Source of the DNA: Ginglymostoma cirratum
Lineage: Eukaryota
Assembly: GCA_024137785.1 (NCBI GenBank)
Contig: JAHRHZ010000266.1
Coordinates: 124,001 to 188,000 of the forward strand
Length of the DNA stretch: 64,000 nt
Direction of reading: 5' to 3'
Both the position numbers and the translations under genes were made by a program. Below are positions 5,961 through 37,123 of the stretch, one piece after another (the first letter of the stretch is position 1; every line of letters starts with the position of its first letter). The notes beneath the pieces are model-generated. The model saw only the letters and a program-made list of their open reading frames with translations, was not told the origin of the DNA and did no database searches.

Positions 5961-6135
5961 TCCTGGTGTAGCCCCCCCGACTCCTTCATTCCTGGTGCAG
6001 AGTTCCCCTCACTTCCCTTGCAGATTCCCTTCGCTCCTGAGGTAGCTTCCTCCCCTCACAAATGGTTCAGCCTCCCCTCACTCTTGGTTCAGGCCTTCCT
6101 TCACTCTTGGTGTGGCCCTCCCTTAATTCCTGACA
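5960..6135 (+). repeat. Degenerate ~25-bp tandem repeat (cctcccctcactc-tggtg); also at 40735-40885
   Basis: Visible periodic units in both duplicate copies. Confidence 0.6.
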
Positions 6136-6799
6136 TCTCTCTGCAATTATATAGAGCCTTGGTGAGACCCCATCTGGAATCTGGTGAACAGATCTGATTT
6201 CCACATCTACGACAATGTCTACTTGTTAAAGAGGAAGGGTCTGAGGAAAGGTCACTGGACCCGAAAATTTAGCTGCTTTTTCCTTTACAGATGCTGCCAG
6301 ACCTGCTGAGCTTTTCCAGCAACTTTGTTTTTGTTAAAGAGGGAGTGTAACAAAGATTAACTAAACTAATCCCAGGGATGGAATGATTGTCCTTTGAAGC
6401 GAGATTAAGTAGACTGAGCCTTTTTTCTACACAAATCAGAAGAACAGGAGGTGATCTTTCAATCAGATCACATCCTTACAGGGATTGACAGTGTTGATAC
6501 ACTGTCTTGAACCAGGGAACACAGCCTCAGAATGAAGGATAGACCCTTAAGGGAGAGGCTGTTTAGGACTGAGATGAGAGGGAATTTATTGTCGCAAAGG
6601 AGGTGAATCTTGAGAAATCTCTAGCCAGAGAGCTGTGAAAGCTTAGTCATTGAGTATCTTCACGAATTAAATGGTAAATTTCCAGACATTAAAAACATTG
6701 AGAGGTATGGGGATAGTGCAGGAAAGTGGTGTTGAACTACTAGACCAGACATGATCCTATTGATTGGTGGAGCATCTTGTCCCTAGTGGGGAAAGTCCA

Positions 6800-7460
6800 G
6801 ATACACACTCTCCTGACTCTCTTACTCCTTGTGGCTGTGGAAATCTTCCAAAGACACACTTCGGCTTTAAATCTTCCAGTGGAACAGCTTACATGGTCTT
6901 TGTTGTTAGACAAATCCAAGTAAAATGTCAAGCACAACACAAGAAACTCTTTATTACATTTCTCAACCTGACCAAAGCAGATAACTTAGTAAATCACTTG
7001 ATGGAACAATCCTGCAACTGCTTTGTGATGACATGACTGCTTCTGAAACAGATGTCTTCACTGATCAGGATCAGAGTCAAGCAACGCTGTGTGACAGCTC
7101 CACATTATCTATAGTCTACCAAACAGTGACTGTGTCCTCTGGTGTCAGGATTAGATATTACCAAGATAGAAATCTCTTCAACCTCAGACTCATCCGTGCC
7201 AAAATAACATGACCACAACAAACAGACATGAGATACAGTATGCACTGAGAACTTCACTGTTGGTTTTGCATTCTGCACCAGACTAGCAAACCACCCTTGA
7301 CCTCTTCAAACTTGCAAAAAGACACTTGACTACTGCTTGAGTGTTGCCAAAACAAAACTCAAATCACCCATCAGTTAAATATTCTACCTCCCGTATATGT
7401 TAAAACTCTGGAATACAATTAGCACACTCGATATCTTGGGAGGCACCTCCCTCAAAAGGG
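6800..7460 (+). mobile_element. RTE-clade LINE RT remnant (paralogue at ~41445-42090)
   Basis: LPKTHFGFKSSSGTAYMVFVVRQIQVKCQAQHKKLFITFLNLTKA resembles the RTE motif LPESQCGFR..RGT.DMIF.RQ.QEKC.EQ....F.DLTKAFD. Confidence 0.7.
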
Positions 7461-8554
7461 TGCCCAAGGCTGAGATCACTGGCTCTGTCCATCACTGCAA
7501 GTCTGAGAACAGTCCATAGGCGACCACGAAGGGACTCTGGTTTTCAATGTCCACTGGGGAAGAGAGATCCAACTCTGGATCAGCAGAGACAGCTCAACCT
7601 TCTAGAAACTATGGCAGTGATTGTATGACAACATTGGCTCTCCACAAGTCAGCAAAAAGTCCTTGTCTTCATCACCAGCCCATGTAAATGTTGGTGGACC
7701 CACAATGCTGTTTGGGATGGAATTGCAGGATTGTGACCAAGTGACACTGAAGGAACAAGGATATATTTCCGAGTTAGGATGGTGACTGGAATGAAGGGGA
7801 ACTTGCAGGTGATGGTGATCCCATGTATCTGTAATCATGAACAAGAATGAAGTTGACTCTGTTGCCACAGTTCGGACACTGAATGGCATTTGGACACTTT
7901 CCCTGTTCTTCCAAAAAGACAATCTTCAGAAGCTTTTTTTTTATTTTTGAAACATTTCATTGCATCTGTGTGTTTGGGACTTCTTCAACTCAAAAGACGA
8001 CATGTTGCAGCTTATGAGCCTTTGGACATCTTGCAGGATAATTTAAAATGTTACAATTTGCAATCACCTTGTTAAATACAAATGATTCTGAGGCTCAGAG
8101 CGCACCAATAATATGTTACAGTCTCTGACAGGTCCAAGTCACATTAATATCTCTTGTGTCACACATGTCTCCTGTGGAATGTCATTCCAATGTGGCAGCA
8201 AAATAGGTAAAATCTGCTTCCTGTTTGGTAGCATCATACATGACAAAAGGAGGCCCCTCATCCCATTGTGCCTGTGCCAGCCGTTTGAAATTAGTCACAC
8301 TCTCCGTGTTCTTTCCTAATTCTGTGCATTGCCTCTGTCATGTGACCTCTGGTTCTTTTCTCAATCATCTTTATCTGTACATTTACTCACTGACTGTCCC
8401 GCCACTGGAAATAGTTTCTCATGACTTTCTTTAGAAACAGTCTTCTTGAATTGACACGGCTCAATCAAATCTCCCCTGAATCTTCACTGCTCTAAAAGCA
8501 ACACCAGTTCTTCCAAAGAACTGAGGTCTTTCTTCTCTGGAACCATTCTAGTTA

Positions 8555-11185
8555 CTTTATACTAACAGTCCAATCAGTAATATGACCAGCATCACATCAG
8601 TGTTGTCTAGCTTTCGTTGAAGTGCAGTTATTCTGTTCCGTTCTGAATTGATATGGCCCAGTCTGTCATGGTGGCTACTTCTGGTGCCGGTTTTGCTATG
8701 TAGTGGTACGTAGATGAGGTCTATTTCAAAATGTTTGTTCTTGGCATCTGCGGTTGAAAACCAGGCTTCCAGGAATTCTCATTCTTTTCTTTGTTTTTTT
8801 GTCCTAGTACTGTTACATTGTTCCAGTTAAACTGATGACCTTCTTTGTCGGAGTGAATAGAAATGAGGGAGAGTTGGTCGTGCCATTTTGCTGCGAGTTG
8901 GTGTTCATGTATCCTGGTGGTGAGTTTCCTGCTGTATTGCTTCTCGCAGTTACTGAATGGGTATTTTGTATATCACATTTGTCCCGTTAATTGTGGGTAT
9001 GGGGTTTTTCATCTTTGAGATTAGCTGGCAAAGTGCAGCTGTTGGTTTGAGTGCTATCATTAATCCAAGAGGTCGTAGGAGTCTTGTAGTCAGTTCCGAT
9101 GTATTTCTAATCTCACAATTAGAGAACAGGATGACCTATACACTAAAGAAATTCCAGTCGACAGGCCAAATAACAAGAACAGACTTCCTCTCAATGAAAC
9201 CCTGTAGTTCAAACATCCCGCAATTCTACAGACAACCCAAGGTGCACAAACCCTCATGCCCATAGTTTCCTTGCCAGACACACTGACACACACTCTAGCC
9301 AAGGAGCTGCAATATAGACTGAAATACATCCCTAATGGATACAGTCAGTCCATTCACTCCGCACAGGAATTTCTGAATAACATCAGAAACATAAAAATCG
9401 ACAAGAATGAAATGATGGTCTCCTTCAACGTTACAGCGCTATTCATCGCTATCGACATGGCACTAGCAATGGACACACCTGCCACATTATTAGACAATCC
9501 GAAAACACAGACCTCCAATGAAACCAGCAGCAAGGACAATATGCTGAATTACACCTATCTCTTACAGTGCACTTTGTCTTCGACGCCCAGTTAGATGGAC
9601 AAATTAATGGGACACTGATGGATTCACCCATCTCGGGTCTCATAGCGGAAGCAGTTATGCAAAGACTTGAACACACAGCCCTCCCCCAGATCCAGCTTAA
9701 ACTATGGGTCAGGTACGTGGACAATACTTCTGTGATCATTAAATGAACAAAATTAGAAGAAACACACCACCTCATTAACATCAGCTTTCATCAGTTTTCC
9801 TGCTCCTCTGATGCTGCCTGGCCTGCTGTGTTACTCCAGCTCCACGCTGTGCTATCTCTGACCCCAGCACCAACAGTTCTTACTACCTCTGACCTCATTA
9901 ACAGAATATTCACTGTGATCAAGTTCACCAGGGAAGAGGAGAACAACAATCAACTCCTGTTTCTAGATTTTATGGTGGAACGAATGAACAACGATGAAAT
10001 CCTTACCAGTGTATGCAGAGAGACTACACATACAGACCAAATCCTGAATTACAACAGTAACCAACCCAGTGTCCACAAACAGAGCTGTGTCAAGACTCTG
10101 TTTAAATGAGCGAGAACACACTGCAACACCCCGGAGCTGCACGAAAACAAAGAGGAACACCTATACAAAATCTTTGCAAACAATGGGTATCCTAACAGTT
10201 TCATCTGCCGATGCCTGGCAAATAAACAGCACCAAGAAGACACTGTATATCCCAACACACTGGCCACTCTACTCTATATCAGAAACACATCAGAACTGAC
10301 TACAAGACTCCTACGACCTCTTGGAATAACGATAGCACACAAACCAACAGCTGCACTTCGCCAGCTACTCTCAAAGACAAAAGACCCCGTATCCGCAATG
10401 AGCAGGACAAATGTGACTTCCAAAAAAAATACCATGCAGCAACTGCAAGAAGCAATACACAGGACAGACAGGCAGGAAACTCGCCACCAGGTTACATGAA
10501 CACCAATTCGCAGCAAAATGACACGACCAACTCTCCCTCATGTCTAAGAAAACAAGGTGTAGAGCTGGATGAACACAGCAGGCCAAGCAGCATCATAGGG
10601 GCAGGAAAGCTTGACGTTTCAGGCCCAGACCCTTCATCAGAAACAATGTAACAGTACTAGGACAAGCAAAACAAAGACAAGCACAAGAATTCCTGGAAGC
10701 CTGGTTTTTCAGCTGCTGATGCCATAAAAAAACACCTCATCTACGTACCACTACATAGCAAAACCAGAAACAAAACTAAAACAGAAGTTGCTGGAAAAGC
10801 TCATCAGGTCTTGCAGCAGCTGTGAAGAAAAAATCGGAGTTAACGTTTTGGGTCTGGTGACCCTCAGAACTCCCGACCGAAAACATTCACTGTGACTGTT
10901 TCGTCACGGATGCTGCTAGACCTGCTGAGCTTTTCCAGCAACTTGTGTTTTTGTTCCTGACTTACAGCATCTACAGTTCTTCTGGAAACAGAACTACATA
11001 CTATGACAGACCGCACCATATAAATTCAGAACGGATCAGAACGACAGCACTTCAATGGAGGCTGGACAGCACTGAAGGTGTCACCTAGAAGGGGAACAAA
11101 ATGTTTGCATGAAAACCAGGCAGCTCGGTGAACCAGCCTAAAACTCCAGCCACAACCCGAGCTACAGATCTTCGCTAAAACATTA
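8555..11185 (+). mobile_element. Penelope-like element (family 1): inverted 5' copy of the 3' region (8555-9113), degenerate RT + GIY-YIG, pLTR
   Basis: PKVHKP, PIVS, MVSFNVTALF, SPISGLIAE, RYVDN, IKFTREEE, YTGQTGRKLATR; 9040-9113 is the reverse complement of 10278-10350. Confidence 0.85.
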
Positions 11186-11409
11186 AACACTAGTCTAATG
11201 GTATCCATGAAACCATCATCAATTGTTGGAAAAAATCCATTTGGTTCACTGATGTTCTTTAGGGAAGGGAAATACCATCCTTATCCTGTCTAGCCTACAT
11301 GTGACTCCAGTCCCACAGCAACAGATTTGACTCTAAAATACCTTCAGAAATGACCAAGGGAGACACTGAGTTGCACAAAACCATTACAAAATGTAAAAGG
11401 ACGGTTATA

Positions 11410-12660
11410 GAGTCACAGAGTCATAGCGATGTAGAGCATGGAAACAGGCCCTTCAGTCTAACTTGTCCATGCCGATCAGATAGCCTAAATTATTCTCATC
11501 CCATTTGCCAGCATTTGGCCTATATCCCTTGAAAGCCTTCCTGTTCATATACCATCCCAATGCCTTTTAAATGTTGCAATTGTACCAGCCTCCATCACTT
11601 CCTCTGGCAGTTCATTCCATACACGCACCACCTTCTGCATGAAAAAGTTGTCCCTGAGGTCCCTTATAAATCTTTCCCTTCCCACCCTAAACCTATGCCC
11701 TCTAGTTGTGGACTTCCCTACCCTGGGCAAAAGACCTTGGCTATTCACCCTATCCAAGGCCCTCATGATTTTATAAACTCCTATAAGGTCACTCCTCAGA
11801 CTCTGACGCTGCAGGGAAAATAGCCCTAGCCTGTTCAGCCTCTCCCTATAGCTCAATCCCTCTAACCCTGGCAACATGCTTGTAATTTTTTTCTGAGTCC
11901 TTTTGAGTTTCTCAAAATCTTTCCAAGAGCAGGGAGACCAGAAGTGAATGCAGTATTCCAAAAGTGGCCTAACCAGTGTCCTGTATGTTAGCAACATTAC
12001 CAACCAACTCCTTTACTCAGTGCACTAACCATTAAAGACGAGCATTCCAAATGCCTTCTTCACTACCCTGTACTCCACTTTCAAAGAACTATGACCCTGC
12101 ACTCCAAGGCCTTTTTGTTTGGTAACAGTCCACAGGACCTTATCATTAAGTATATAAGTGCTGCAATGATTTGCATTTCCAAAATGCAGTGCCTCACATC
12201 GATTTAAATTAAACTCCATCTGCCATTTCTCAGCACATTGGCCTGTCTGATCAATGTCCCATTGTACTGTGAGATAACCTTCTTCGTTGCTCACTACACC
12301 ACCAATATTGGTGTCATCTGCAAACATATCAACCATACTGACTTTATTCACATCCACATCATTTAGGTAAATGACAATAAGCAATGGATCAAGCACCGAT
12401 CCTTGCGGCACACCGCCGGAAACAGGCCTTGAGTCCGAAAAGCAATCCTGCTTCACCACCCTCTGTCTAATATCATCAAGCCAGTAATGTATCCAAATGG
12501 CTGGTTCCCCCTGTATTCCATGTGATCTAATCTTTCTAACCAGTCTATCATGTGGAAATTTTCAAATGCCTTACTGAAGTCCATTTACGCCACATCCACT
12601 GCTCTCCATTCTTCAGTCATCTTTGTCACTCCTTCAAAAAACTCCAAATTAATGAGTCAT
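11410..12660 (-). mobile_element. 5'-truncated CR1 LINE
   Basis: ORFs 12025-12459 (GVPQGSVL, FADDT) and 11545-12003 (RPLLEYC...WNELPEEV). Confidence 0.9.
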
Positions 12661-12934
12661 GTTATGTCTGAACAGCGAATAGTGTGCCAATAACCATGTC
12701 CTGTTGCTCCACACATCATCAGGAACTGTACAAACGTACAACAAACCCAATGAGATCACCCCTGACAGACTGCTACTCAGGACAGAAGAAAACCACATCA
12801 GGAATCTTCAGTAACAGTGAAAATAATTCCATAAATCAATATTCCCAGTAATGAAAGTGGTGAAAAGAAAATATCCCTAATTAATGCACCTTAACTGTAC
12901 CCCTTCAAAACCACATGCACACTCACCCATATAT

Positions 12935-12967
12935 AGACACACACACGCACACACACGCACACACACA
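12935..12967. repeat. (CA)n microsatellite
   Basis: Direct inspection. Confidence 0.85.
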
Positions 12968-13399
12968 ATTAAGACAGAGAAAAGATAAACAGTTTATATT
13001 TCTCCCATGAGTGAATAGAGAATATACACAGGGTAAACAAAACTCTGAAATTCAAAGTCCAGAAAAGAAGATGGAAAGATCTTTCTCTTTCACAGTCCTT
13101 GTGATTTTTTTTGCAGTGGTGAGATACTGCTCCCTGTACAATGATGGTCACCCTTCAAATTCAATGGTCAATCAGGTGAACATATATCTTTGATCATGTG
13201 AATTATATCCTTTCAGCTTGCTCGGGTTTTCTGTGCATTTCTCTATGGTGATGGGAGAGATGGACAGTTGGCTGTTTTCTTTCTGTAGCTACTCTCCACT
13301 TTCCACTTTCAGGGGCTCCTGGCACTTACAGTTTTGTAACAGTTGCAGTTCTACAAATCAGACGGCAGTTGCCAGGCAGAATTTTCTTAACTCAAAAAA

Positions 13400-14710
13400 T
13401 TATCATGAAGTCTTAGCATTAGGTCAAACATGACCAAGGAAATCTCCTGATTACTACCTACTGCCACAATCCTCCCACTCCCAGTCTCATGGTCATTTCG
13501 ATCACCACTTGAAGGAAGCACTGATGTCAACAAGTGCATAGAATGCACTCTGGGTCAGAAATTTAATGTCCCACATCAAGACACACTCAATAATTCACTA
13601 CTGGCTGAACTGGTGCAGTCTTGAATGATGTAGCTGCTGGACTGGGTCTGTGTGCAGGTAGTCAAGGAACAAACAAGAGAGAAAAGCCTGACCTTCTTCT
13701 CAGCAATCTCAGGATTGTGAGGACTGACCACCATACAGTCGTTGTGGAGGCAAACTCCCAACTTCACATTGAGTTACATCCCCGTCATTTATGGCACTGG
13801 CCCTGTGGTAAATGGGACAGATTTTGAACAGATCTAGCAACTCAAGACTGGGATCCATGGGGCACTATGGACCATCAGTAAAGCAGAATTATTGGGGAAG
13901 CAATTGCTCCTCAATAATTCTGCTGTACTGATGGACTGTTAATCCAGAGATGCAGATAATATTCTGGGGACCTGGGTTCAAATCCTGCCACAGCAGATGG
14001 TGAAATTTAAATTCAATAAATATATGGAGTTAAGAGTCTAATGATGACTGTGAATCTGTTGTGAATTGTTGGAAAAAACCATCTGTTTCCCTAATATCAT
14101 TCAAGGAAGGAATGTGCCATTCTTACTTGGTCTGGCCTACATGTGACTCCGGACCCACAACAATATGGTAGACTCTTAACTGCCCTCTGGGCTATTAGGA
14201 ATGGAGAATAAGTGCTGTTTAGCTAGCAATGCCCTCGTCCCATGAATGAATTAAGAAAAAGAATGGGGCTCCAATACAATCTGTAAACTCACGCCCTGGC
14301 AACTTTTCCCAACTCAACCATTAATATCAAGTCAAGCCACCAACACTGGTTCAATGAACAATGTGGGAGGCATATCAGGAACATCATCAACAAACCTGAA
14401 AATGAGATGCCAGCTACAAAACGGGGCTACTTCCATGTCAAACAGCATAAACAGCGTGCGATAAGTGATTCCACTGCCAGTGCATCAGACGTAAGTTCAG
14501 CAGACCTGCCACTTGCAGTTGTGAATAATTGAGGACAATTAATCAACCAACAGGAGAATGAGTCTCCACAAATATCCCCATCCACAATGAGGGGGAGCTC
14601 AGCTCATCGGTGCAAAAGACAGGGCTGAAGCATTCACAAATAATTTGACTCAGAAGTGCTGAGTGATCATCGAACTCAGTCTTCTCTAGAGGTCCCCAGC
14701 ATCATAGATG
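13400..14710 (+). mobile_element. Old CR1/L2-clade LINE fragment interrupted by a SINE (~13933-14260)
   Basis: RTDHHTV...RHLWHWPCGKWDRF remnant; related pieces at ~21200-22470 and ~49745-50190; the SINE matches 54100-54455. Confidence 0.55.
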
Positions 14711-15599
14711 ATTCTTTACCCAGAAGGCAAACATAATTTGGTGGGTCTGCAGTCATGTGTAGGTAGGGCTAGGAACAGAAATCATGGGGCCGAGTGTTAT
14801 TTCCTCACACAGTCCCTGACCTGTCCTCACTAGCCCACACTCGCTTCCACTGACCTAACACAGTGAACCCCATTATTGAATGCAGATGGGGCAGCCAGGT
14901 CTGTCCTGTGCCCTTCATGTAGACCAGCCCAAGTAAGGATGGCAGAGACAAAAACAGAAATTGCTATAAAAACTCAGCAGGTCTGGCAGCATCAGTGAAC
15001 AGAAAGTAGAGTTGATGTTTTGAGTCCAGTGATACTGCTTTAGAAATAAAATGATTGAAAATGGTGGACTGAGAGTAGCGTGGATCTTGCAACTGCTCTG
15101 GAGTTTCAGGCTTATTTCTAGATTTACTTCTATATTTCTTACATTTGTTAAATTTCAGTAATATACAGTTTTTATTTAATTCATTTTGATTCATTTATAA
15201 CCAAAAACACGAAAAAAAGACGGGCAGAATTTTTTAACAAACGGAGTTGTGTCAATAGACCTTTTGGATCCGCCTACATGTGGACTGCTCATTGTTTTGT
15301 CTCAATGAAATTATAAGAGCTTTTTTTTTAACATCACTAAAGCAATTTTTATAAAATTCCCTTGGAGAGTTTTGTTTTAAATGGAATTGTGTTTACAGAG
15401 CTTTTGGAGAGGCTACGCTGGGGTGGCTCCAGACTGGGATTTGCTTTTAATCAGAAGGTTGAAAGCAAACTGCTGGACCACTTGAGCAGAAGTTATTTTT
15501 GAGTTTTTTTAAAATTTGGTTGTTCAGCAAAGTGATTGATTTTATTGAAGACTTATACATTTTTTTAATTCTTATTGCTTGCATGCTTAATATTAACTC

Positions 15600-18012
15600 T
15601 TTGAGTAAGGAAGGGTAGTGTAGTTTATTTTAGAGATAAGATGGTATTGTAAGCTGCTTCTTTTTAGGCTTAATGACATTCGAGGCATACTACAGACAAG
15701 AGTTAGCTAGCGAGTAGGTTTAGAGAAGTGATTACACAGCAGAATCAATCAAATAGATGGATAATTGTCAGGAACGTTAAGAAGATATTTCAGAAATCTC
15801 CCGTGGCTGTTTTTCTCTCAAACAGATCCTTAGTTTTGGGTGTTGTTGAAAGGATAGTCGCTCAGAGGAGAATAGAAGAAACAGTCAGATCTTGGATCTA
15901 AGAATGAATCTTATGTTAGGCGGGGTTTGACAAAATTTAAATTAATAATTGATATAGGTGACTCTCCTGTCAAGGGCACATATCAGGGATTCTGTGGCAG
16001 TGAGCGTGAATCACAGAGAGCATGTTGCTTTCCTGGTGCAAACTGTTTGAAACATATAGTGAAAGAAGAGTCGGAAACCAGATATTGTACACATTGGTAA
16101 GAAAGACATAGTTAGGGAAAAGATTAAGGCTTTACAGACTGAATATCAATGGTTATGGAGAAGATTTAAGAAGGAGATCAGGAATTCAAAGAAAGGATAT
16201 GAGGTAGTTTTGGCAAATAAGGTTAAGGTTAATCCAAAGGTATTCTACAGGTACATTAAGAGCAAGAGCGCAACAAGTGAGAAGAATAGGCCTCCTTAAA
16301 GATGAAAGAGGTCATCTTTGTGTTCAACTTCAGGAGATGAGAGAGATGTAAAATGAATATTTTGCATCAGGTTTTACAATGGAGAAAGAAATCAAGGCTA
16401 GAGAACTCTGGGAAATAAATACTGATGTTGTGAAAATAGTTTGCATTGCCAAAGCGGAGATGCTGGAGGTCTTGAAAAAATATAAATCTCCGGAATCTGA
16501 TCCAGCGTATACCAGGACTTTGTGGGAATTTAGGGAGGAAATTGTATGGCCACTTGCAGAAATATTTGTATCATCTACAAATACAAGTGAGATGCTGAAT
16601 GTCTGGAGAGTGGCTAATGTTGTGCCTTGGTTAAGAAGGGATGTAAGGAGAGGCCTGGTAACTATAGACTTGCGAGTCTGACTTTGGCGATGGGTAAGTT
16701 GTTGGAAGTGATTCTGAAATTTAGGAGTTCTATGCATTTAGGTAGGCAAGGAATAATGAGGGATAGCCAGTATGGATTTGTGCGAGGGAAATTGTGTCTC
16801 ACAAGCTTGATTAAGCTTTTTGTGGATGTGACCAAGAAGGTTGATGAGGGCTGAATGGTAGACATTGTTAACTTAGACTTTGTTAAATCCTTTGAAAAGA
16901 TTCTGTATGGTCGACTAATTAGTCAAGTTAGATGACATGGAATTCTGTGTTGCCAAGTGGATGCAAATTTGGCTTAACAGCAGGAACAGGGAGTGATGGT
17001 GGAGGCCTGTGTTTTTTGGACTGGAGGCCCACGACCAGCGGTGTTCCACAGGGAGGGGTCCCTTTTGCTTGTCCTTTATATAAATGATTTAGATGAGAAT
17101 ATAGAAAGCATGATTTGTAAGTTTGTGGATGATACTAAGATTGGCGGTATAGTGGACAGTGAAGAAGGTTATCTAAGATTACAAAGAGATCTTGATCAAG
17201 TGGGTCAATGGGCAGAAAAGTGACAGATGGAGCTAAATTTAGACAAAGCGAGGCATTGCACATTTGGAAAACAAACAAAGGCAAGACTTATACAGTTAGA
17301 AGTAGGGCCTTAGGCAGAGTTTTAGAACAGAAGGACACCTAGGTTTTTAGGTTCATAATTCATTGAAGTTTGCATCACTTATAGATCGGGAGGTTAAGAA
17401 GGTGATTAGCACACTTGCCTTCATCGCTCAGACCTTGAGTGTAAGAGTTGAGACGTTATATTGAAGTTGCACAGGATGTTAGTGAGACCTATACTGGAGT
17501 ACTGTGTCCAGTTCTGGTGGCCCTATTATAGGAAGAATTTTATTAAGCTAATGAGTGTTCAAAAGAGATTTACAAGGAAGTTGTTGGGAAAGGAGAGCTT
17601 GAGTTATGAGGCAAGGCTGGAATAGACTGGAACTCTTCTCAGTGGAGCGTACAAGCTTTTACTGTAGAAGCTGATAAATTCATGAGGGGTATAGATTAAG
17701 TGATTGGCAGGTGTCTTTTCCCTAGGGTGGGGGATTTCAAGACTGGGGGCATATTTTAAGGTGAGAGCAGAAAGGTTTTAAAAAGACAAGAGGGACAATT
17801 CTGATTTTACACAGAGAGTGGTTCATGTGTGGAATGAACTTCCAGAGGAAGTGGTGGATGTGGGTACAGTTTCAATATTTAAACGATAAGTACATAAATA
17901 AGAAATGTTTGGAGGGATTTGGGCCAAGTGGAGGCAGGTGGGACTAGTTTAGTTTGGGCTTATGGTCAGCATGTACAGGTTGAACCAAAGGATCTGTTTC
18001 CGTGCTGTATGA
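15600..18012 (+). mobile_element. Long CR1 LINE with ORF1 esterase remnant, internally deleted, then ORF2 RT and 3' tail
   Basis: IGDSPVKG...FCGSERES..CCFPGA at ~15950-16040; KYKSPESD, WRVANVVP, FVDDTKIGG; tail gtgctgtatgactcta. Confidence 0.8.
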
Positions 18013-19419
18013 CTCTAAGACACTATAACTGGTTGTAGCTGAGAAAAGTTTAGTATAAGTGCTGAAGATGGGGTGGAGAGTGGGGACAGGAGTACACGCT
18101 CGGTGAAGATGGAGACCAGAGAGAGAGAAAGACAATTGTACAGACAAAGGAATGGGAAAAGGTCAGCTTGGGAGAATGAATAGCTACTGATGTGGACAAT
18201 AAGTCGCTGACAATGTATTGTTTATAGTAGCAGCCCATGTGATGAAAGAGGCCTGGAGTGTGGGTGTTGGGGAAAGGAGAAATAAGAAGGTGCTCAGGCA
18301 CTAAAATTATCGAACACAATAATGAGTCCGGAGGGCCACAGGGTTCCTGCACAGTGGTGTGTTGAAATGGCAGGCAACTGAAAGCTCAGGGTCATTTCTG
18401 TGGACAGAACACACATGTTCTGCAAAGTGGTCACCCAGTCTGTGTTTTATCTTCCCAATGTAGAGCTAGAAGTGAAATGTGGAGCGTTGGTGAGGCATTT
18501 CTGATGCCAGTGTGAGGTTGTGCTGATAGAGAGAGAAGGCTCACAATTGTACATAAAGCAATGCATGGCATATTTCATTACTATGCCAAGTCACCATATT
18601 CCCACCTGACCATGGGACTGCTTTCTCATTAGAGAGAGATGATTGGTGGCTATTTAACCTGTGGGTCACCATACCTCAGGCAGGGAAAGAGGTTAAGAAG
18701 GACAGTTTTTCATCGTAACAGCCTGTATGGGAATTGAACCCACACTGTAGGCATCACTCTGCTTCACAAACCAACCATCCAGCCAACTGAGATAAACCAA
18801 CCCCCAGATTCCCTAAAGGGGCTTGACTGAATCAGATGGCCATTTCCGGTTATCAACAATGGCTACATGTGGCCATTAGATTAGTTTTTCATTTAAATTC
18901 CAGACTTTTAAAAATTACATTCAAGTTTCACCTTCTGCCATTGCGGGATTCAAACCCATGGCCCAGTGACAGCAGCAGAATACCACCACCTCCATTTATA
19001 ACCCATGTGTAACTGCAGGGCTAGGAGGATATCACATGGCTGTGATGCCTCACACATTCAGATGGACACGGGAGGAATGTACTTGCACAGATGGAACTAT
19101 TCCTGATGAAGGTGTGAGCACTTTCATTGTAACCAAGAGGGACACATTAGATTGTTGCACCTTGCTGATCAAGGAGATGATTTCAATGTCAATACAATTT
19201 TGTGTTGTTTGCGGAATGAACTGAATGTTCTGAGTATGTCAATGTCTTTCAATACTGACAATAGAATGCACCTAAAAGGATCAGCACATCAGATTACATT
19301 AAATATTTTAAAAATCAAATTTAAAATACAAAAGCAAAACAGTGCAGATGCTGCAAATTTGAAATAAATATCACAATGCTGCAAATACTTAGCAGGCCAG
19401 ACAACACCTGTGGAAAGAA

Positions 19420-19581
19420 GAGCGATAACAAGGTGTGATAACAAAGAAATTTCTGATGAAGGGTCTAGACCCGAAATGTCAAGCTTTCCTGCTCCTATGA
19501 TGCTACTTGGCCTGCTGTGTTCATCCAGCCCCACACCTTGTTATCTCGGATTCTCCAGCATCTGCAGTTTCTATTATCTCT
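19420..19581 (+). mobile_element. Short Penelope pLTR-derived insertion with hammerhead-like core
   Basis: 15-bp TSD cacctgtggaaagaa (19405-19419, 19582-19596); ctgatga-gggtctagaccc-gaaatgtc. Confidence 0.75.
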
Positions 19582-19705
19582 CACCTGTGGAAAGAAACTC
19601 GGTTAAAGTTTTAGTTCAATGATTTCTCATCAGAAAATCAAATCACAAAATGTCCACAGAATATATCACACTCTCAGACTGAAGGACGTGTGAATGGCTT
19701 CTTAC

Positions 19706-20053
19706 CATCTACCTGCAGCTGTGTCTCTTTCCGGATCAGATACTGGTAATCGTGTCTTGATCTGTATTCCACCTGACACAGGTAAGTGTGATTGTCCCTC
19801 ACACTCAGCTGGTTTATCCTGGTCAAGGTGTTTCCTTCCTCTGGGTTCCCAATGAGCGCGTATCGATTTCCACCATTTACAGTTGTCCAATTTCCCTGTG
19901 ATTGGGCTGTAAATGTAACAATGTGTTGGTAGGGCTCCTTCCTCATCCAGGTAACAGTGGTCAGAGTGGGGTAGCCCTCAGTCCTGAAAATACAGGGTAA
20001 AGTAACAGTATCTCCCTCTGTCCCATTCACCACTAAAACCTCTCCCTGAGCAG
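19706..20053 (-). pseudogene. Gene A V-set Ig exon 2, Siglec-15-like, reading frame intact
   Basis: Acceptor tttgtcctttgctcag, donor G|gtaaga; 348 nt, phase 1-1; B-strand LPC, WMRKEPY, RYALIGNP, DNHTYLCQVEY (ORF 19674-20072). Confidence 0.9.
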
Positions 20054-20735
20054 CTGAGCAAAGGACAAACATCAGAATGTATGAAGTCAGTCTGGTGAAG
20101 TTCTCGATTCAATTTATTACATTCCTTTCAACTTCATGATAAAATGAAGAATTAACAAATCCGCTCATATCTTTCACAGATCTGTCCCAGACATTGCCCT
20201 CCAGGAGTCACCCTGATCAATATGTCTCGCCATCACTTGTTTCAAGGACCTTAATCACAAGATATTCACAGATCAGGAAATGTATTAAGCCCTCTGGAAT
20301 TCATTCATGCAGAACCCTCTGTCCATTGTTCAAATTTAATATTCTTTAAATAAGGTAAAGGATTTTACAGCTTTCCCCCAACTCTCTGCTCAACAATTAC
20401 ATTCCAAGTATTGACCTCACTCTGAGTGTCATTGCTAATGTGATTTTCACTAGCTCCGACCTGTGAACTTTGAAATGAGTGCAGGTTAATGTGAACTCAT
20501 ATTCCAGATCATTTTTTCTGCACCAATTCTGATATTTTGCTTGGAGGTGGAGGGGTAGATCATTATGTGGTTCCTTGCTGCACAAACTTTAAAGAGAAGC
20601 TGAGAGATGGAATATTTCCTCATCCCCACTTTAACTGGGAAACCCCTTATTCTGAAATTATTTCTCTGTTTGACTTCTGTTCATAAGAGTAAATATCCTC
20701 TCAGGATCTGCCTTGTCAAGCTTCCTCAGAATCTT

Positions 20736-20950
20736 GAACAAAAACAAAGCCGCTGGAAAAGCTCAGCAGGTTTCGCAGCATCTGTGAAGGAAAAACAGAG
20801 TTAATATTTCGGAAGGAAGGGTCACCGGACCCAAAACGTTAACTCTGTTTTTTCCTTCACAGATGCTGCCCGACCTGCTGAGCTTTTCCAGCAGCTTTGT
20901 TTTTGTTCCTGATTTACAGCATCCGCAGTTCTTTCGGTTTTTATTTAGTC
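20736..20950. mobile_element. Fold-back pLTR-derived element (family with copies at ~5190, 6238, 10765, 34660, 35170, 56095, 57815)
   Basis: Inverted arms gctggaaaagctcagcagg...catctgtgaagg; TSD tcctcagaatctt. Confidence 0.7.
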
Positions 20951-23533
20951 TCCTCAGAATCTTCTTTGTTTCATCAATTTCTCCTCTAAGTTTTTAAATT
21001 TGGTCATGGATATCGCTGGCTCGGATTATGTGCATTTATTGTCCATCCTGATTGCCCAGTGAAGCTGTCTTCTTGATCTGCAGCAGTCCTGAGGTGTCGG
21101 GTTTTCCAACAGTAATTTCAGGGATGCAGTTCCACAGTTTTTACCCAGCAACACTGAAGGAATAGCAGTATTGTCAGAATGGAACCAGACTACTCCACAT
21201 TGACTGTGGCACCAAAACCAATGAGAGCAGACACAGCCCTGTCAACCCTGCAAAGTCCTCCTCATTAACATCCTCCTTCTTAACATCTGGCAACTAGTGC
21301 AAAAGTTGGAAGAGCTGTCTTACAGACTGGTCACCTAACAGCCTCACATAGTCAAATTCACAGGATCATAACTTACAATATCCTTGACAGCCCTGTCACC
21401 ATCCCTGTATATTATCTTGTCCTTTGTCCCACCAATGGGACTGACCCAGCAGAGGTGAAGGCACAGTAGTATGCAGTAAGAAAGGAGTTGCCCAAACTTA
21501 AAGATGATATTTATAAGCCCATCTAACCACAATCTGTAACCTCACGATCCAGGTTAACCCCCAACCCACCATTCCCATCAGGCTGGGAGATTAGTGAAGT
21601 GTACATGTGGGTATGTTGTGAGCAATGCCAGGCATACCCAAAAATGTGATGCCAACATGCTGAAACTACAACCTGCAGGACTACTTGCTTGTCTAACAGC
21701 AGGAACAGCACACAATAGAGCCATCCTATAAACAATGGATCAGATGGATCTGCAGTCCAGAATGGTGGTGGACAATTAGTACACCAAGCTGTTCCAGCAC
21801 AGCTATAACAACGACATTGCCCCAACAATGTGGAAAATTGCCCAGGAATGTCCTGTACGCAAAAAGCAATGTGAGTCTGACCTGGCCAATTACCGCCCCA
21901 TCAGTCCACTGTGAAGTGATGGAAGGTGTGAGCAACTGCCCTTAACTTCAAGGCCGCACTTGAGTGGGTGCGGCATCAAGGAACCTGACAAAACTGAATC
22001 TGATGAGAATCGGGGAAGAACCTTCCACTGGATGGAGTCATACCTGGCACAAAGGAAGATGGCTGTGGTTGATGGACGTCAGTCATCTCAGGTCCAGGAG
22101 ATCTCTGCAGGAGTCCATCGGGGGTTTATCCTAGGCCTATCATCTTCAGCTGTTTCATCAATGACTCTCCCTCCACCATAAGGTCAGAAGTGGGGATGGA
22201 TGTTTGCTGATGAACATGAGGTGCACCACCTACAAGCTCCTCTTCAAGACACTCACCATCCTGATTTGGAAATATTTCACCATTCCTTCAGTGTCACTGG
22301 TACAAAGTCCTGGAACTCCTTTGCCAACTGCATCATGAGTGTCCCTGCACCTGAGGGAATGCAGCAATTCAAGAAGGCAGCTCACTATTCCGTTCTCCAG
22401 GGTAATTGGGGATATCCAATAAAGGCTGACCAAGCATGTGACATTCACATCCCCTTGAATAATTAAAAGATAAATATAATTCCAAGTCAGGATGGTGGGT
22501 ATCTGCTGCTGTTTTTCACTTTGGTCATAGAGGTCACTAGTTTGGAAGGTGCTGGTGGAGGAAGTGTTGGCACATTACTGAAGCATATATTGTCATTATT
22601 CTTATTCCCACAATGGTGTTAGGGTGGGAGTTCCAGGATGTTGACCCAGCAATGGTGACAGAGTGGCGATATATTTCCCTGCTCTCTTCCAGGCAAGTGG
22701 GGAGTATTCCATTGCAGTCCTGACAGTTCAATATACTTTGGAGTCATAAATTGTGTTAATTTACAGGATTCCTAGCCTGTGACCTGTTTTTGTAGCCACA
22801 GTTTCATTTGCACTCCTGGATTTACTCCTTGTCCACAACTGAGTGAGGCATTCAGAGGGCATTTAAGAGTCAACCACATTGCTGTAGGTCTGGAGTCACA
22901 TAAAGGTCAGACCAGGTAAGGAAGGACATGAGTGAAACAGATTTTTTTTACAGTGATGGTTACACGGTCATTATTAGACAAGTTTTTAGTTCTAGATATT
23001 TTCAAATTCTAATTTCACAAATGGCCATAGATTGGAATCCATTCCCCAGGACATAAGCCTCTGGAGAAGGCAACGTCCCAATGTTCTCTTCAGCCAATAG
23101 ATATGGAAGATGGTTCTCAGCCAATGTGAGCTGAAGATTCCTTCACCCTGACATGTGCTCATTCAATAAGGGCTCAGGAGATACCAGGTGTCTCTTTTCC
23201 TCAACCAATGCAGAAAGAGCAGGGGTCTCATTGGTGGGGGTGTTCGAGCTTGGATCCTCTGTAATGTTTACTCAGTTCCCTATCCCAGAACGCTGAAGCC
23301 AGTTTAAACATGGCGAACAAACGAATGTGTGAGAGACTGTGGGAGGTTTCAGAGACAGTGATGGAATGTTTTTTAAACCCGAGCCTCGTTTCTCTCTCCT
23401 GCTTACTATCTCCTGCCTGAGACCAACTGAAAGAGCCCAAGAGAAGCAGCCACCCCAAGAGCTCCCAGATCAGGTGCAGCCTCTTCCCATTGAATTATCA
23501 GGGCAGCGACACCATCCAAACATTGTTCCGCAC

Positions 23534-23902
23534 CATTCACTTCCAAATCTCTTCCAAACGGTGTTTTAAAACTGCCGATACTGAGCTCCAGATGACACCA
23601 ATAGATACCAGCATCCTCCTGGCTCTGTCCCTCCATCATTATTGAGACATCTTTGTTGCTGATATTATCCATGAATCTGAATCGTCCACTGTATCACATC
23701 CTCACACAGCTCACCCTGGGAATGGTCTGGACCAGGATAGATACAGTCAAAGATAACACCTGTGTCAGATTGAATCCATATCACGGAGCCGATGAGTGTA
23801 AGATTAGTGCCTGGGTGGAGCTGCAGAGTAAGACAGCAGAACTTCGTTCCTCAACCCTCACATCATTCACGACTGTCATGGACCAATCAGGAGCAGAATT
23901 CG
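23534..23902 (-). pseudogene. Gene A V-set Ig exon 1, Siglec-15-like, two frameshifts
   Basis: Strong pyrimidine acceptor (ctctcccctcacag), donor G|gtgcgg. Corrected translation: NSAPDWSMTVVNDVRVEERSSAVLLCS/HPGTNLTLIGSVIWIQSDTGVIFDCIYPGPDHSQGELCEDV/YSGRFRFMDNISNKDVSIMMEGQSQEDAGIYWCHLELSIGSFKTPFGRDLEVN. Matches Siglec-15 motifs WSM, LPCxFTHP, VFxC, ELC, GRFR, YxCxxE. Confidence 0.85.
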
Positions 23903-26435: not shown

Positions 26436-28408
26436 GATAATAGGAACTGCAGATGCTGGAGAATCCGAGATAACAAGGTGTGGAGCTGGATGGACACAGC
26501 AGGCCAAGCAGCATCATAGGAGCAGGAAAGCTTGACGTTTCGGGCCTGGACCCTTCATCAGAAATGGGGGAGGGAAAGAGGGTTCTGAAATAAATAGGGA
26601 GAGAGGGGGAGGCGGATAGAAGATGGATAGAGGAGAGGATAGGTGGAGAGGAGGCAGACAAGTCAAAGAGGCAGGGATGGCCTAAAGGCCCTCCGCTTCT
26701 TCCTGTCCCGCAGAACGGACCAATCCCCCTCCACTGACACCCTCATCCGCTTAGCCAAACTCGTCCTCACCCTCAACAAATTCTCTTTCAATTCCTCCCA
26801 CTTCCTACAGACAAAGGGGGTGGCCATGGGTACCCGCATGGGCCCAAGCTATGCCTGCCTCTTTGTAGGTTATGTGGAACAATCCCTCTTCCTTACCTAC
26901 ACTGGCCCTAAACCCCACCTCTTCCTCTGTTACATTGATGACTGTATCGGTGCCGCCTCGTGCTCCCACGAGGAGCTCAAACAGTTCATCCACTTCACCA
27001 ACACCTTCCACCCCAACCTGAAGTTCACCTGGACCATCTCGAACACCTCTCTCTTCTTCTTGGACCTCTCTGTCTCCATCTCGGGTAACCGCCTAGAAAC
27101 CGATATCCATTTCAAGCCCACTGACTCCCACAGCTACCTAGAATACACCTCCTCCCACCCACCTTCATGCAAAAATGCCATCCCCTATTCCCAATTCCTT
27201 TGCCTCCACCGTATCTGCTCCCAGGGTGAGGCATTCCACTCCCGCACATCTCAGATGTCCTCATTCTTCAAGGACCGCAACATCCCCCCGGCAGTGGTCG
27301 AGAACGCCCTCGACCGTGTCGCCCACATTTCCCGCAACTCATCCCTCACACCCCATCCACACAATAACAACCGAAAAAGAATCCCCCTCGTCCTCACGTA
27401 CCACCCCACCAACCTCCGGATCCAACGCATCATCCTCCGACACTTCCACCATCTGCAATCCGACACCACCACCAAAGACATTTTTCCCTCCCCACTCTTG
27501 TCTTCTTTCCGGAGGGACCACTCTCTCCGTGACTCCCTTGTCCACTGCACACTCCCCTCCAGCCCCACCACACCCAGCACTTTTCCCTGCAACTGCAGGA
27601 AGTGTTACACCTGCCCCCATACCTCCTCCCTCACCCCAATCCCAGGCCCCAAGAAGACTTTCCACATCAAGCAGATGTTCACCTGCACATCTGCCAATGT
27701 GGTGTACTGCATCCGCTGTACCCGTTGTGGCCTCCTCTACATCAGGGAAACCAAGCGGAAGCTTAGGGACCGCTTTGCAGAACATCTGCGCTCAGTTCGC
27801 AACAAACAACTGCACCTCCCAGTCGCGAACCATTTCAACTACGCCTCCCATTCCTCAGACGACATGTCCATCCTGGGCCTCCTGCGGTGCCACAATGATG
27901 CCACCCGAAGGCTGCAGGAACAGCAAATCATATTCAGCCTGGGAACCCTGCAGCCCAATGGTATCAATATGGATTTCACAAGCTTCAAAATCTCCCCTCC
28001 CCCAACCGTATCCCAAAACCAGCCCAGCTCGTCCCCACCTCCCTAACCTGTTCTTCCTCTCACCTGTCCCCTCCTCCCACCTCCAGCCCCACCCCCATCT
28101 CCTATCTACTAACCTTATCCCGCCCCCTTGACCTGTCCGTCCTCCCTGGACTGACCTATCTCCTCCCTACCCCCCTACCTACACTCACCTTTACTGGCTC
28201 CATCCCCACCTCTTCGACTTGTCTGCCTCCTCCCTACCTATCCTCTCCTCTATCCATCTTCTGTCTGCCTCCCCCCCTCCCTATTTATTTCGGAACCTTC
28301 TTCCCCTCCCCAATTTCTGATGAAGGGTCTGGGCCCGAAACGTCAAGCTTTCCTGCTCCTATGATGCTGCTTGGCCTGCTGTGTTCATCCAGCTCCACAT
28401 CTTGTTAT
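26436..28408 (+). mobile_element. Young 5'-truncated Penelope-like element (family 2) with inverted pLTR
   Basis: Open 467-codon frame 26643-28046: GVAMGTRMGPSYA, YIDD, GIY-YIG region NVVYCIRCTRCGLLYIRETKR; 26436-26680 is inverse to 28200-28408; TSD caatgttttct(t/c)ata. Confidence 0.95.
28317..28344 (+). ncRNA. Minimal type I hammerhead ribozyme motif in the Penelope pLTR
   Basis: CTGATGA-a-GGGT ctgg GCCC-GAAACGTC; near-identical cores at 26534-26561 (-) and 45883-45910 (+). Confidence 0.7.
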
Positions 28409-30774
28409 CAATGTTTTCTCATATCTCTCTTTGTTCTCTTAATTGCTTCTTGAGTTCCCCCTGCATTTCTTGTATTCCTTTAAGGGCCTATGTTATTTTG
28501 CCCATTTCGTACCTGTTATATGACTCTCTTTTCCTTTCGATCCAGTCTTGAGTATTCCCAGACATCCCCAGTTCTCTGGGCTTGTTCCTCTTTCATTTCA
28601 CAATTTCTAGAAAATTCTCGATCCTCTGGCCTATCGCTGGTTTTCCTGCTGTGTGTGCATTAATTTTTGTTTGAATACTCCCCTTGACCATCTTTGTTAA
28701 CCTCAGGTGGTTTATCCTTCTCATGAAGTCTTTCTTTGACCAGAATAAATTCTAGCTCAGCATTAGGAAATATCTCCGTAAATGTCTGCCATTGTTCATC
28801 CTACTTTCCATTTTCTCCATCGGCTAGTTTCCTAGCTCACTTTACACAATGTCTTTTCTTCATTCCTCTATAATTGTCTTTATTTGAGGACACTACTCTT
28901 AGACTGAGGCTGCTCTCCCTCAAACTGATTTGAAATTCTATAATGTTGTGATTGCTATGCCCTGTAGGATCCTCAAATACAGGAACGCTTCATAATTTTC
29001 CCTTATTACACATCACTAGATCTAAATAACCTGTTACTGGACAGATTCTGCGATGCGCTTCTCTAAGACACAATCCCTTCTGAATTCAAGACATTAATTT
29101 CTCTTATTATCCTTGCCTATCTGATTTGTTGAGTCAATATGCAGATTAACATGACCCATGACAATTGTAGTACCTTTCTTGCACACCTCCACTATTTCTA
29201 GGTTTATAATTTTTCCTGCAGTGAGGCAATTTTTGGCCTATAAACAACTCCCACCAGTGATTCCTTTGCCTTGATAGTCCTTACTTCCACCTAAACCAAT
29301 TCCACATCATGATCATTTGCATTTATATTATTCCTCACCACCACACAATGCGATCCCACCTCCTTTCACCTTTTGTCAATTTTTCCAGACAGATGAAGAG
29401 TCCAGAGTACTAATTTTTTAACATCCTTTCTTACCTTGGTGCTAATTTCCACTACACCTTTCCGTATATATTTTCTACACCTTCCCATCACACTTTGATT
29501 ATCATTCACCTCTTCAATAGTCTGCACTTTCAACTCTCTCATTTCTTTTTAATTGGTTGAGAGGGAACCTGATAGAATATGTACGATTTTGAGTGCACGG
29601 GCAGGATTGATAAGAAAGTGTTTTTTTTTTCATTCGTACAGGGACCAGTAACTATCTATATTGATTTAGATAAGAGATAGAGGGTGACAGGAGAGTTAAG
29701 GAGATTTTTTTTCACCCTTAAAGGGTGATAAGAGTCTGGTGCTCACTGCCAGAAAACGCGGTTGAGTTAGACATGCTAGTAACATTTGTATTTAGATGTT
29801 CATTTGTGCTTCTATTTGCCTCGTCAGTAGCCTCCACCTCTGCTCGCTCTCATCTTTTTGAGTTTTCAAACTTCCCTCCAACTGAATCCCACACCCATCC
29901 GTCTTGATCCAGTCTTGAGTATTCCCAGACATCATGGGCTTGTTGTTCTTTAATTTCAGAATTTCTAGAAAATTCTCAATCCTCTGGCCTATCGCTGGTT
30001 TTTCTGCCCATCCCCACCCTCGTCCCTACCTAACTAATTCATTTAAAGCCCTCAATAAGTTGCTTATGAAGGCTTTTAGATCAACAGCTGTAAAATGGGA
30101 CAAGTAGAGTCTGATGGTTGTTGACTGATACAGATATGATGACCTAAAATCTTCTCTCTTTATGCTGTAAGTGTCTAAGATTCCATGAATCTACAATGAA
30201 AACTTGAAGGACTGAATCTTCACACTAGAAATAGTTAGTTGTCACTGTCTTCATTTTTTGTAAAGCAGATAATTTCTCCTTGACGAAGAAACCACGGTGA
30301 AGGAAAAGGCACATCGCGCTAAACAGCAACAGGTTTAGGAATTAAATGCCAGGCAGCAGACAGGTCATCAAGGAGGAGGCAATTACATGATTAACAAAAT
30401 GGATTTGAAAGGTCAGTATTAGAAAGTACGTACTGTAACCCCGCACCGAGACTGACAGGAGGACCGCAGAGAGACAAACATAGAGAGATCCCATTGTCAA
30501 TACTTCACGATTTCACCCTTCTCACGTGCTTACTCTTGTACTTCACATAAAAATAGGGAAGATACTTGACATCTTGCCAAAGTAATGTTGGTCAATTTTA
30601 CATCATATGAACAACAAATGGGAAGTGTGTGTACGGTCAGTAGCAGCTGAGAGAATGACAAAGCTGTTGTGAAACTGAGGCACCAACCACAACAACAGTT
30701 GAGAAAAGGAGATGCTACATCAGCTTCAAATACAATTCTCAAAATCATCAGTGTCAACATCAAACACACTGAGA

Positions 30775-36543: not shown

Positions 36544-36575
36544 CTATGTGTTCACAATGGCTGCATAGGTTACAT
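36544..36575 (-). CDS. Gene B terminal coding exon with ITIM, (N)VTYAAIVNT*
   Basis: Branch ctgac plus ttctgtctctttcaaacag acceptor; phase 1; V-x-Y-x-x-I motif then tandem TAG TAG stops. Confidence 0.85.
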
Positions 36576-37079
36576 CTGTTTGAAAGAGACAGAAGTCAGT
36601 GCTGATTATGGTTATAATTTCAGTTTGTGGGTAATTACGGAAAGTGGGGAACATTTACCCCAACATCAGCTCCTCAGTATCAAGGTAATTACTGGAAAGG
36701 GAAATATTTACTCCAACAGTTGTACATTTTGCCCCTCATTCTCTTTACGACCTTTACAAACACATGGGGGGAGACAAGCTTTTTGACCGACAATGAAATA
36801 TCATTCAATGGGATAGTGGAGAATTTGTTCACTTTCCAATTGGTGCAGAAAAGCTACACCCAAATGATGATGGACAGATCGACCAACAGCATTGTGGTGA
36901 GGGGATAGGGCTTGGAGGTCATGTGATCAAACTTCCATGACGCAGCCACCCAGAGTCAGGGACTCTAATAACAAGGTAATAGATCACCCAGCCCCAACTG
37001 ACACTGTCTCACACATGGGAGAATGGGCTTCAGAGGAAGGGGAAAGGATCAGGATTTTGAAAGGAAAAAACTGACTCAC

Positions 37080-37121
37080 TCTCTTCTGAATCAGCAACTG
37101 AGAGAGTCTTGCCATCTTGAA
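37080..37121 (-). CDS. Gene B cytoplasmic exon 6, (V)QDGKTLSVADSEE(N)
   Basis: Acceptor ttattctttttcag, donor A|gtgagt; 42 nt, phase 1-1; 88-bp intron from the previous exon. Confidence 0.8.
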
Positions 37122-37123
37122 CT

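What the first reader, a model, noticed from the sequence alone, without database searches (positions are those of the whole stretch)
19706..23902. Tandem V-V Siglec-15-like ectodomain, both domains lacking the essential arginine
Siglec-15 has F-strand YFCRVE, whose Arg binds the sialic acid carboxylate. Here V1 reads YWCHLE (CAT, 23592-23594) and V2 reads YLCQVE (CAG, 19773-19775). Each codon is one G>A step from CGT or CGG, as expected from CpG deamination. V1 keeps the four-cysteine Siglec-15 pattern; V2 has only the B-F pair. Two tandem V-sets are unusual for Siglecs (human Siglec-12 is the known case). This could be pseudogene decay or a family-wide shift to another ligand.
Basis: partly seen in the sequence, partly recalled or inferred. 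Interest (0 to 1): 0.7.

Follow-up and report, generated by a model that had tools for sequence, protein, structure and literature searches.

The report
Broken shark Siglec-15-like receptor gene
This is a broken copy of a shark immune-receptor gene from a large Siglec-15-like family; its second domain lacks the sugar-binding arginine like every relative checked, so the locus is ordinary, but the family's predicted activating members lose the first-domain arginine far more often than the predicted inhibitory ones, which may mark a switch of ligand.

Summary
The codons, cysteines and exon limits are as reported, but the gene is broken. V1 has 4-nt and 11-nt deletions with in-frame stops, no transmembrane exon was found, and a tail exon has a stop at its ITIM tyrosine.

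It belongs to an elasmobranch family (109 proteins, 21 species) built of V1-V2 units, with Lys-transmembrane or ITIM tails. Siglec-15 is its closest solved relative. Tandem V-V is the family norm.

V2 never has the arginine (0 of 106; 89 Leu, 12 Gln), so its Gln is standing variation, not CpG decay. V1 usually keeps it (79 of 107). His, Cys and Tyr recur in intact models, including this copy's nearest relatives, as in ape Siglec-5/14.

The by-product is more interesting. V1 lacks Arg in 16 of 33 Lys-transmembrane versus 1 of 30 ITIM members, though this is not significant on independent pairs. A related V-V-C2-Lys gene lacks both arginines in nine shark and ray species. No ligand was tested.

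The parts
30434..30494 (-). Signal-peptide exon of the broken gene (ATG, 61 nt, phase-1 GT donor), open
   Evidence: tblastn of relatives; limits
23534..23902 (-). V1 exon, Siglec-15-like four-Cys V-set; two frameshifting deletions (23819-23818, 23685), first stop 23783-23781; His codon 23594-23592
19706..20053 (-). V2 exon, open, two-Cys V-set; Gln codon 19775-19773; lacks the A-strand Trp of V1/Siglec-15
   Evidence: model pLDDT 84.4, top match 7ZOZ
601..19705 (-). Stretch where the transmembrane and first four tail exons should lie; none found. Intron blocks 1-8554 match the upstream paralogue's 37124-43193 at 74-82%
87..139 (-). Remnant of a tail exon (53 nt versus 54 in the paralogue), TAA at the ITIM-like Tyr codon (119-117); assignment to the same gene is inferred from order and orientation
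36544..59985 (-). Intact 3' half of the upstream paralogue: transmembrane exon without Lys (59985-59875) plus seven tail exons, three Tyr motifs, all AG/GT, open to the stop; its V exons lie beyond the window
26643..28046 (+). Retroelement ORF (weak RT and GIY-YIG matches, Penelope-like by inference) in the intron between the signal and V1 exons

Best explanation
This is a frameshifted, likely dead copy of a tandemly duplicated shark receptor gene of a Siglec-15-like family, in which the first V domain is predicted to bind sialic acid and the second is likely a spacer or second binding module that never had to keep the arginine. Shown: the lesions, the family, its V1-V2 layout, its two tail types and the residue counts. 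Inferred: intact ITIM members use V1 (Arg, A-strand Trp, G-strand aromatic, four Cys) to sense self sialic acid and inhibit through SHP phosphatases, while Lys-transmembrane members activate through DAP12-type adaptors. The V1 Arg codon is likely CGY and a CpG hot spot, which gives recurrent His/Cys/Tyr. This copy belonged to a V1 sub-branch that had already relaxed the Arg and was probably an ITIM-type gene. It later lost frame, transmembrane exon and ITIM, as expected under birth-and-death turnover. The V2 Gln is standing Leu/Gln variation.
For: Lesions. V1 differs at 16 of 67 columns conserved in 32 carpet-shark V1 (family median 1, max 11). Family: 53 hits for V2, up to 85% identity; 115 hits for the profile; 109 elasmobranch proteins from 21 species kept. 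Siglec-15 closest: profile E 5.5e-23, next hit 2.7e-15; a V1-only member gives 7ZOZ E 1.9e-17, then CD33 and sialoadhesin. V2 Arg 0 of 106, V1 Arg 79 of 107; Trp44 equivalent 85 of 85, Tyr154 equivalent Phe in 81 of 106. Nearest V1 relatives carry His (Stegostoma P0006) and Cys (Hemiscyllium P0025): 97/86 with the site, 99/77 without it. Intact ITIM-type neighbour in tandem. Precedent: Arg to His/Tyr in ape SIGLEC5/14, to Cys in human SIGLEC12, Arg loss plus ORF disruption in SIGLEC17 (PMC7379906, passages). R143A abolishes Siglec-15 binding (PMC10264397, passages).
Against: V2 is open with good splice sites and has fewer private changes than V1 (3 of 77 versus 10 of 67, Fisher p 0.038). V1-skipped isoforms are annotated in relatives (P0028, P0029, P0044), so the gene may not be wholly dead. 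No sialic acid binding, adaptor binding or expression is shown for any member. No paralogue V-exon DNA was available, so CGY is inferred. Whether the His predates the frameshifts is unresolved (sister order 97/66). A transmembrane exon beyond the window's left end cannot be excluded. Structural scores barely separate Siglec-15 from other V-sets (Z 13.9 versus 13.4, tied).
Confidence: 0.8

Rival explanations
1. The locus still works as a V1-skipped, secreted single-V (signal + V2) decoy or soluble receptor; only V1 and the membrane and tail parts decayed.
For: Signal + V2 splices in frame and reads 10 residues into the intron before a stop. V2 is less decayed than V1 (p 0.038). V1-less models exist in Hemiscyllium and Rhincodon, and P0023 ends with a similar intron read-through.
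Against: No AATAAA/ATTAAA on the minus strand within 1.7 kb after V2. V2 has 5 departures of 77 (median 1; 5 of 30 relatives have as many) and an end branch of 0.24 against a median 0.058. Gene conversion from a paralogue, or the generally slower change of V2, would also explain the asymmetry.
Confidence: 0.12
2. Arg loss is simple post-mortem CpG decay in both domains of a gene whose intact paralogues carry Arg.
For: The gene is broken; the window's CpG observed/expected is 0.25; 79 of 107 V1 have Arg.
Against: No V2 has Arg (0 of 106). 23 of 93 adjacent V1-V2 pairs in annotated models lack Arg in both. The nearest V1 relatives also lack it. It can hold for V1 alone.
Confidence: 0.05
3. The frameshifts are assembly errors and the gene is an intact Arg-less receptor.
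For: The two deletions sum to 15 nt, so the frame is regained; signal and V2 exons are clean.
Against: Neither deletion is in a homopolymer; there are stops between them; there are independent lesions (no transmembrane exon, tail stop plus 1-nt loss) and 10 private substitutions in V1; the neighbouring paralogue's eight exons are error-free.
Confidence: 0.02
4. The family is not Siglec-derived but NKp30-, pIgR/CD300- or MDIR-like, and the Arg has nothing to do with sialic acid.
For: Automatic names include pIgR-like and JAML-like; there is no C2 domain; short V1 pieces hit pIgR first; fold scores are nearly tied among V-sets.
Against: Whole-domain searches put Siglec-15 clearly first. The C'-C'' Cys pair that PMC10264397 calls unique to Siglec-15 is in 100 of 102 and 100 of 103 V1. 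A sister gene matches Siglec-15 across V, C2 and the Lys transmembrane segment (E 1.1e-36).
Confidence: 0.04

Closest known systems
Siglec-15 (human, PDB 7ZOZ)
   Same: Best sequence match and top (near-tied) fold match; four-Cys V1; Arg, Trp and aromatic pocket positions in most V1; Lys transmembrane segment in part of the family.
   Different: Two or four V domains and no C2; many paralogues; ITIM-tailed forms; this copy lacks Arg and is broken.
Primate paired Siglecs 5/14 and 11/16; Siglec-12/XII; SIGLEC17P
   Same: Paired ITIM and DAP12-type receptors, recurrent Arg to His/Tyr/Cys, frequent pseudogenes; Siglec-12 has two V-sets (PMC6288428, PMC7379906; passages).
   Different: Those are CD33-related; the shark cluster is closest to Siglec-15, so the paired design likely arose separately. 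Ape Arg loss affects both Siglec-5 and -14, while in sharks it is biased to Lys-transmembrane members.
Chondrichthyan V-V-C2-Lys 'Siglec-15' RefSeq models (P0244, P0249, P0251-P0257, P0085)
   Same: Tandem V-V; apparently the same chromosome (equal contig lengths); the window's V2 scores 71 bits on its V2 profile; often Arg-less in both V domains.
   Different: Has a C2 domain and a very short tail; V2 residue is His (31 of 36), not Leu; not present in this window.
Skate MDIRs (modular domain immune-type receptors)
   Same: Multigene activating/inhibitory Ig receptors of cartilaginous fish (PMC3031540, passages).
   Different: Described as CD300/TREM/pIgR-like, not Siglec-like; their sequences were not compared here.

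Membership tests
Siglec-15 | N-terminal V-set closest to Siglec-15 | tested here: met
   sequence; fold, first but within 1 Z of others
Siglec-15 | B-F plus C'-C'' cysteine pairs (C64-C142, C95-C104) | tested here: met
   V1 has all four, spread over shifted frames; V2 has only B-F
Siglec-15 | Essential F-strand Arg | tested here: not met
   His in V1, Gln in V2; met in 79 of 107 family V1
Siglec-15 | One C2-set domain after the V-set | tested here: not met
   No C2 exon in the window; V-set only in P0017 and P0041
Siglec-15 | Lys in the transmembrane segment | tested here: not met
   No transmembrane exon of either type found in 601-19705
Siglec-15 | Orthology by synteny | not testable with these tools
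   No unrelated flanking gene was recognised in the window
Siglec (functional) | Sialic-acid-dependent binding | not testable with these tools
   Needs a glycan array
Elasmobranch V1-V2 Siglec-15-like family (defined here) | Signal-V1-V2 exons matching the family profiles | tested here: met
   V2 scores 200 bits on the family V2 profile versus 71 on the sister gene's; V1 nests among carpet-shark V1
Elasmobranch V1-V2 Siglec-15-like family (defined here) | Open frame through a transmembrane exon and tail | tested here: not met
Paired immune receptors | Similar ectodomains joined to ITIM or charged-transmembrane tails | tested here: met
   Family level: 33 Lys-transmembrane and 30 ITIM non-redundant V1, intermixed on the tree; signalling untested
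NKp30/NCR3 | V domain closer in sequence to NKp30 than to Siglecs | tested here: not met
   No NKp30 among all 46 PDB hits of P0240 or the 60 shown of 248 for the profile
MDIR | CD300/pIgR-type domains, homology to skate MDIR1-5 | not tested

The most novel reading that the evidence does not exclude
Sharks and rays built a paired-receptor system of their own from Siglec-15. ITIM members keep the V1 sialic acid pocket to sense self. Lys-transmembrane members repeatedly rebuild that pocket, avoiding self and likely gaining other ligands: Arg is the most eroded of 45 conserved columns, followed by the neighbouring F-G residues. A linked V-V-C2-Lys receptor has been kept without either arginine across sharks and rays, so the likely chondrichthyan Siglec-15 counterpart would be a non-sialic-acid receptor. 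The window holds a fossil of one such Arg-less branch.
Probability: 0.35. Interest if true: 0.68.

Novelty: new variant of a known kind. Interest (0 to 1): 0.4.

Why it matters
The flagged locus by itself matters little. It does lead to a family that databases hold under scattered automatic names and that I found in no searched paper. Fish are described as having four regular Siglecs, with Siglec-15 an activating receptor whose Arg is conserved (PMC7226832, passages). An expanded, paired, C2-less Siglec-15-like cluster in cartilaginous fish would show that the self-sialic-acid brake with activating counter-receptors evolved twice. Natural Arg/non-Arg pairs with near-identical ectodomains make directly testable the question of what Arg-less Siglecs bind.

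Tried and rejected
NKp30 origin (a recalled resemblance): not supported by PDB sequence searches. Its absence from the fold lists is not counted.

CpG origin of the V2 Gln: rejected.

Missing exons: searched by tblastn, hydrophobicity scan, blastn and two transmembrane profiles. Only the upstream paralogue's transmembrane exon was found.

Foldseek with the two-domain model returned generic V-V proteins (JAML, scFv) and was uninformative.

Independent-pairs test of Arg loss against tail type: 7 pairs on well-supported branches, on average 2.9 in the predicted direction, 0.1 against and 4.0 uninformative, median p 0.25. Not significant.

The Fisher value printed used counts fixed before the run and was replaced.

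The cluster look-up could not be made. Eight hits stayed unnamed and are in none of the counts.

The three homologue searches returned no bony-vertebrate Siglec-15, so a separate canonical V-C2 Siglec-15 in sharks is neither shown nor excluded.

Literature searches listed no paper on this family. Term searches found no 'siglec' in the main text of PMC6795676, PMC11372145, PMC9207270 or PMC12227049. No supplements were read; Supplementary file 9 of PMC8455134 lists Siglec families and may bear on novelty. Subscription papers on Siglec evolution were not searchable. Metagenome and viral collections stayed unchecked; the prokaryotic genome scan was not used.

Full report
Setting. The window is repeat-rich vertebrate DNA (GC about 43%). 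The V2 exon finds 53 proteins, all from sharks and rays, the best at 80-85% identity in Chiloscyllium and Hemiscyllium and none identical. A carpet shark is the likely source (inference).

Observation. Human Siglec-15 (7ZOZ) is the best PDB match of V2 (E 1.5e-8), with Gln on Arg143. An AlphaFold model of V2 (pLDDT 84.4) has 7ZOZ first by Foldseek (TM 0.76) and by VIA-align (Z 13.9, rmsd 2.7, 114 aligned; next 13.4, so tied). The fold therefore confirms a V-set but does not itself identify the family. Sequence profiles do: family profile E 5.5e-23 against 7ZOZ, next 2.7e-15. A V1-only member gives Siglec-15, then CD33 and sialoadhesin.

The gene is broken. Order on the minus strand: signal exon 30494-30434, V1 23902-23534, V2 20053-19706. 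Relative to relatives, V1 has lost 4 nt at 23819-23818 and 11 nt at 23685, and the spliced frame stops at 23783-23781 after 60 residues. No transmembrane exon of either type and none of the first four tail exons were found between V2 and position 600. A tail exon at 139-87 has TAA at the ITIM-like Tyr and is 1 nt short. V1 departs from 16 of 67 columns conserved among 32 carpet-shark V1, more than any of them (max 11). Upstream lies the intact 3' half of a paralogue: eight exons, no transmembrane Lys, three Tyr motifs. Matching intron blocks of 74-82% identity show tandem duplication. One point runs against complete death: V2 is open and has fewer private changes than V1 (3 of 77 versus 10 of 67, p 0.038).

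The family. Searches gave 115 named proteins. I dropped 4 lamprey proteins and 2 of a sister group, leaving 109 from 21 elasmobranch species. These are annotated models that include isoforms and partial genes. The layout is V1-V2, V1-V2-V1-V2 or V1-V2-V2-V2, with no C2 domain, followed by a Lys-bearing transmembrane segment with a short tail or a neutral one with Tyr motifs. At the Arg position V2 has 89 Leu, 12 Gln, 4 Val, 1 His and no Arg among 106 aligned domains (3 lacked the strand). V1 has Arg in 79 of 107, or 68 of 95 after merging copies at 97% identity within species. The V2 state is thus ancestral for the family, and Gln recurs in Rhincodon, Stegostoma and Chiloscyllium. 23 of 93 adjacent V1-V2 pairs lack Arg in both domains. 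The window's V1, read through with X at the breaks, groups with a His-bearing Stegostoma and a Cys-bearing Hemiscyllium V1 (97/86; 99/77 with the site removed). His and Cys are the two transition products of CGY, which fits a CpG hot spot in a relaxed branch. Codons of relatives were not available.

How it likely works. Established for human Siglec-15 (PMC10264397, passages): Arg143 binds the carboxylate, Trp44 and Tyr154 stack on the sugar, C95-C104 is distinctive, and R143A abolishes binding. Family V1 keeps Trp (85 of 85 with a residue), Phe at the Tyr154 position (81 of 106) and both extra Cys (100 of 102, 100 of 103). V2 lacks the Trp, the extra Cys and the Arg. I infer that V1 is the lectin domain, V2 a non-lectin module, and that the tails act as in paired Siglecs (PMC6288428, passages). 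None of this is tested for sharks. Arg to His, Tyr, Cys or Trp, with or without ORF loss, is known in primate SIGLEC5, 12, 14 and 17 (PMC7379906, passages). The window's copy is an ordinary instance of that turnover.

By-product 1: Arg loss tracks tail type. Of 95 non-redundant V1, 33 belong to Lys-transmembrane and 30 to ITIM proteins; 32 were unclassified. Arg is missing in 16 of 33 versus 1 of 30 (Fisher p 4e-5). Three Lys-transmembrane proteins missed by my pattern were added by hand, and all three lack Arg; without them the count is 13 of 30. The bias holds in sharks (5 of 10 versus 1 of 21) and batoids (11 of 23 versus 0 of 9). Of 45 columns conserved in ITIM members, the Arg column is the most eroded in Lys members, followed by the Tyr154-equivalent Phe and adjacent F-G residues. 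Shuffling labels within orders reached the observed count in 0 of 20000 trials, but orthologues are not independent, and the independent-pairs test was not significant (median p 0.25). The result is suggestive only. Relaxed selection on redundant activating genes is an alternative to a new ligand.

By-product 2: a sister gene. Searching with P0244 gave 33 hits, 32 of them V-V-C2-type (one turtle hit dropped), including Callorhinchus. Their profile matches Siglec-15 over V1 and again over V2, C2 and the Lys transmembrane segment (E 1.1e-36). V1 has Leu 10, Arg 7, Trp 1, Cys 1; V2 has His 31, Arg 2, Tyr 2, Cys 1. Lys-transmembrane models with neither Arg occur in Cetorhinus, Heterodontus, Chiloscyllium, Heptranchias (partial V1), Pristis, Hypanus, Mobula, Rhinoraja and Leucoraja. 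It is not in the window.

Known or new. Siglec-15 membership fails on Arg, C2 and transmembrane Lys, but the family is best described as Siglec-15-derived. Six literature searches listed no description of it. PMC8455134 mentions Siglecs once (passage), and its supplement was not read. The library lacks most subscription papers, so absence from print is not established.

Verdict. Observation confirmed and interpretation partly supported. The locus is a likely pseudogene (0.8). The family is a new variant of a known kind. Interest 0.4, carried by the family-level patterns rather than by this copy.

Noticed in passing
window 59985-36544 (-): Intact transmembrane and tail exons of an upstream ITIM-type paralogue whose V exons lie beyond the window.
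   Followed up: yes
P0244, P0249, P0251-P0257, P0088, P0085 (not in window): Chondrichthyan V-V-C2-Lys Siglec-15-like gene, lacking Arg in both V domains in nine species; whale shark has Arg in V2 and Mustelus in V1.
   Followed up: partly
family V1 domains: Arg and neighbouring F-G pocket residues erode mainly in Lys-transmembrane members.
   Followed up: partly
P0092, P0246, P0247, P0248: Lamprey tandem-V proteins match the family profile weakly (E 4.7e-32 to 1.3e-6) and have Gln after the F-strand Cys; the relation to Siglecs is unclear.
   Followed up: no
window 19706-20053 versus 23534-23902: V2 is less decayed than V1; a V1-skipped isoform or gene conversion could explain it.
   Followed up: partly
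window 26643-28046 (+) and 44770-45708: 467-codon retroelement ORF with weak RT and GIY-YIG matches, and a partial second copy at 89% identity.
   Followed up: no
P0056, P0048, P0054, P0010, P0021: Several database models contain out-of-frame exon translations, so some annotated members are likely pseudogenes or mis-modelled.
   Followed up: no
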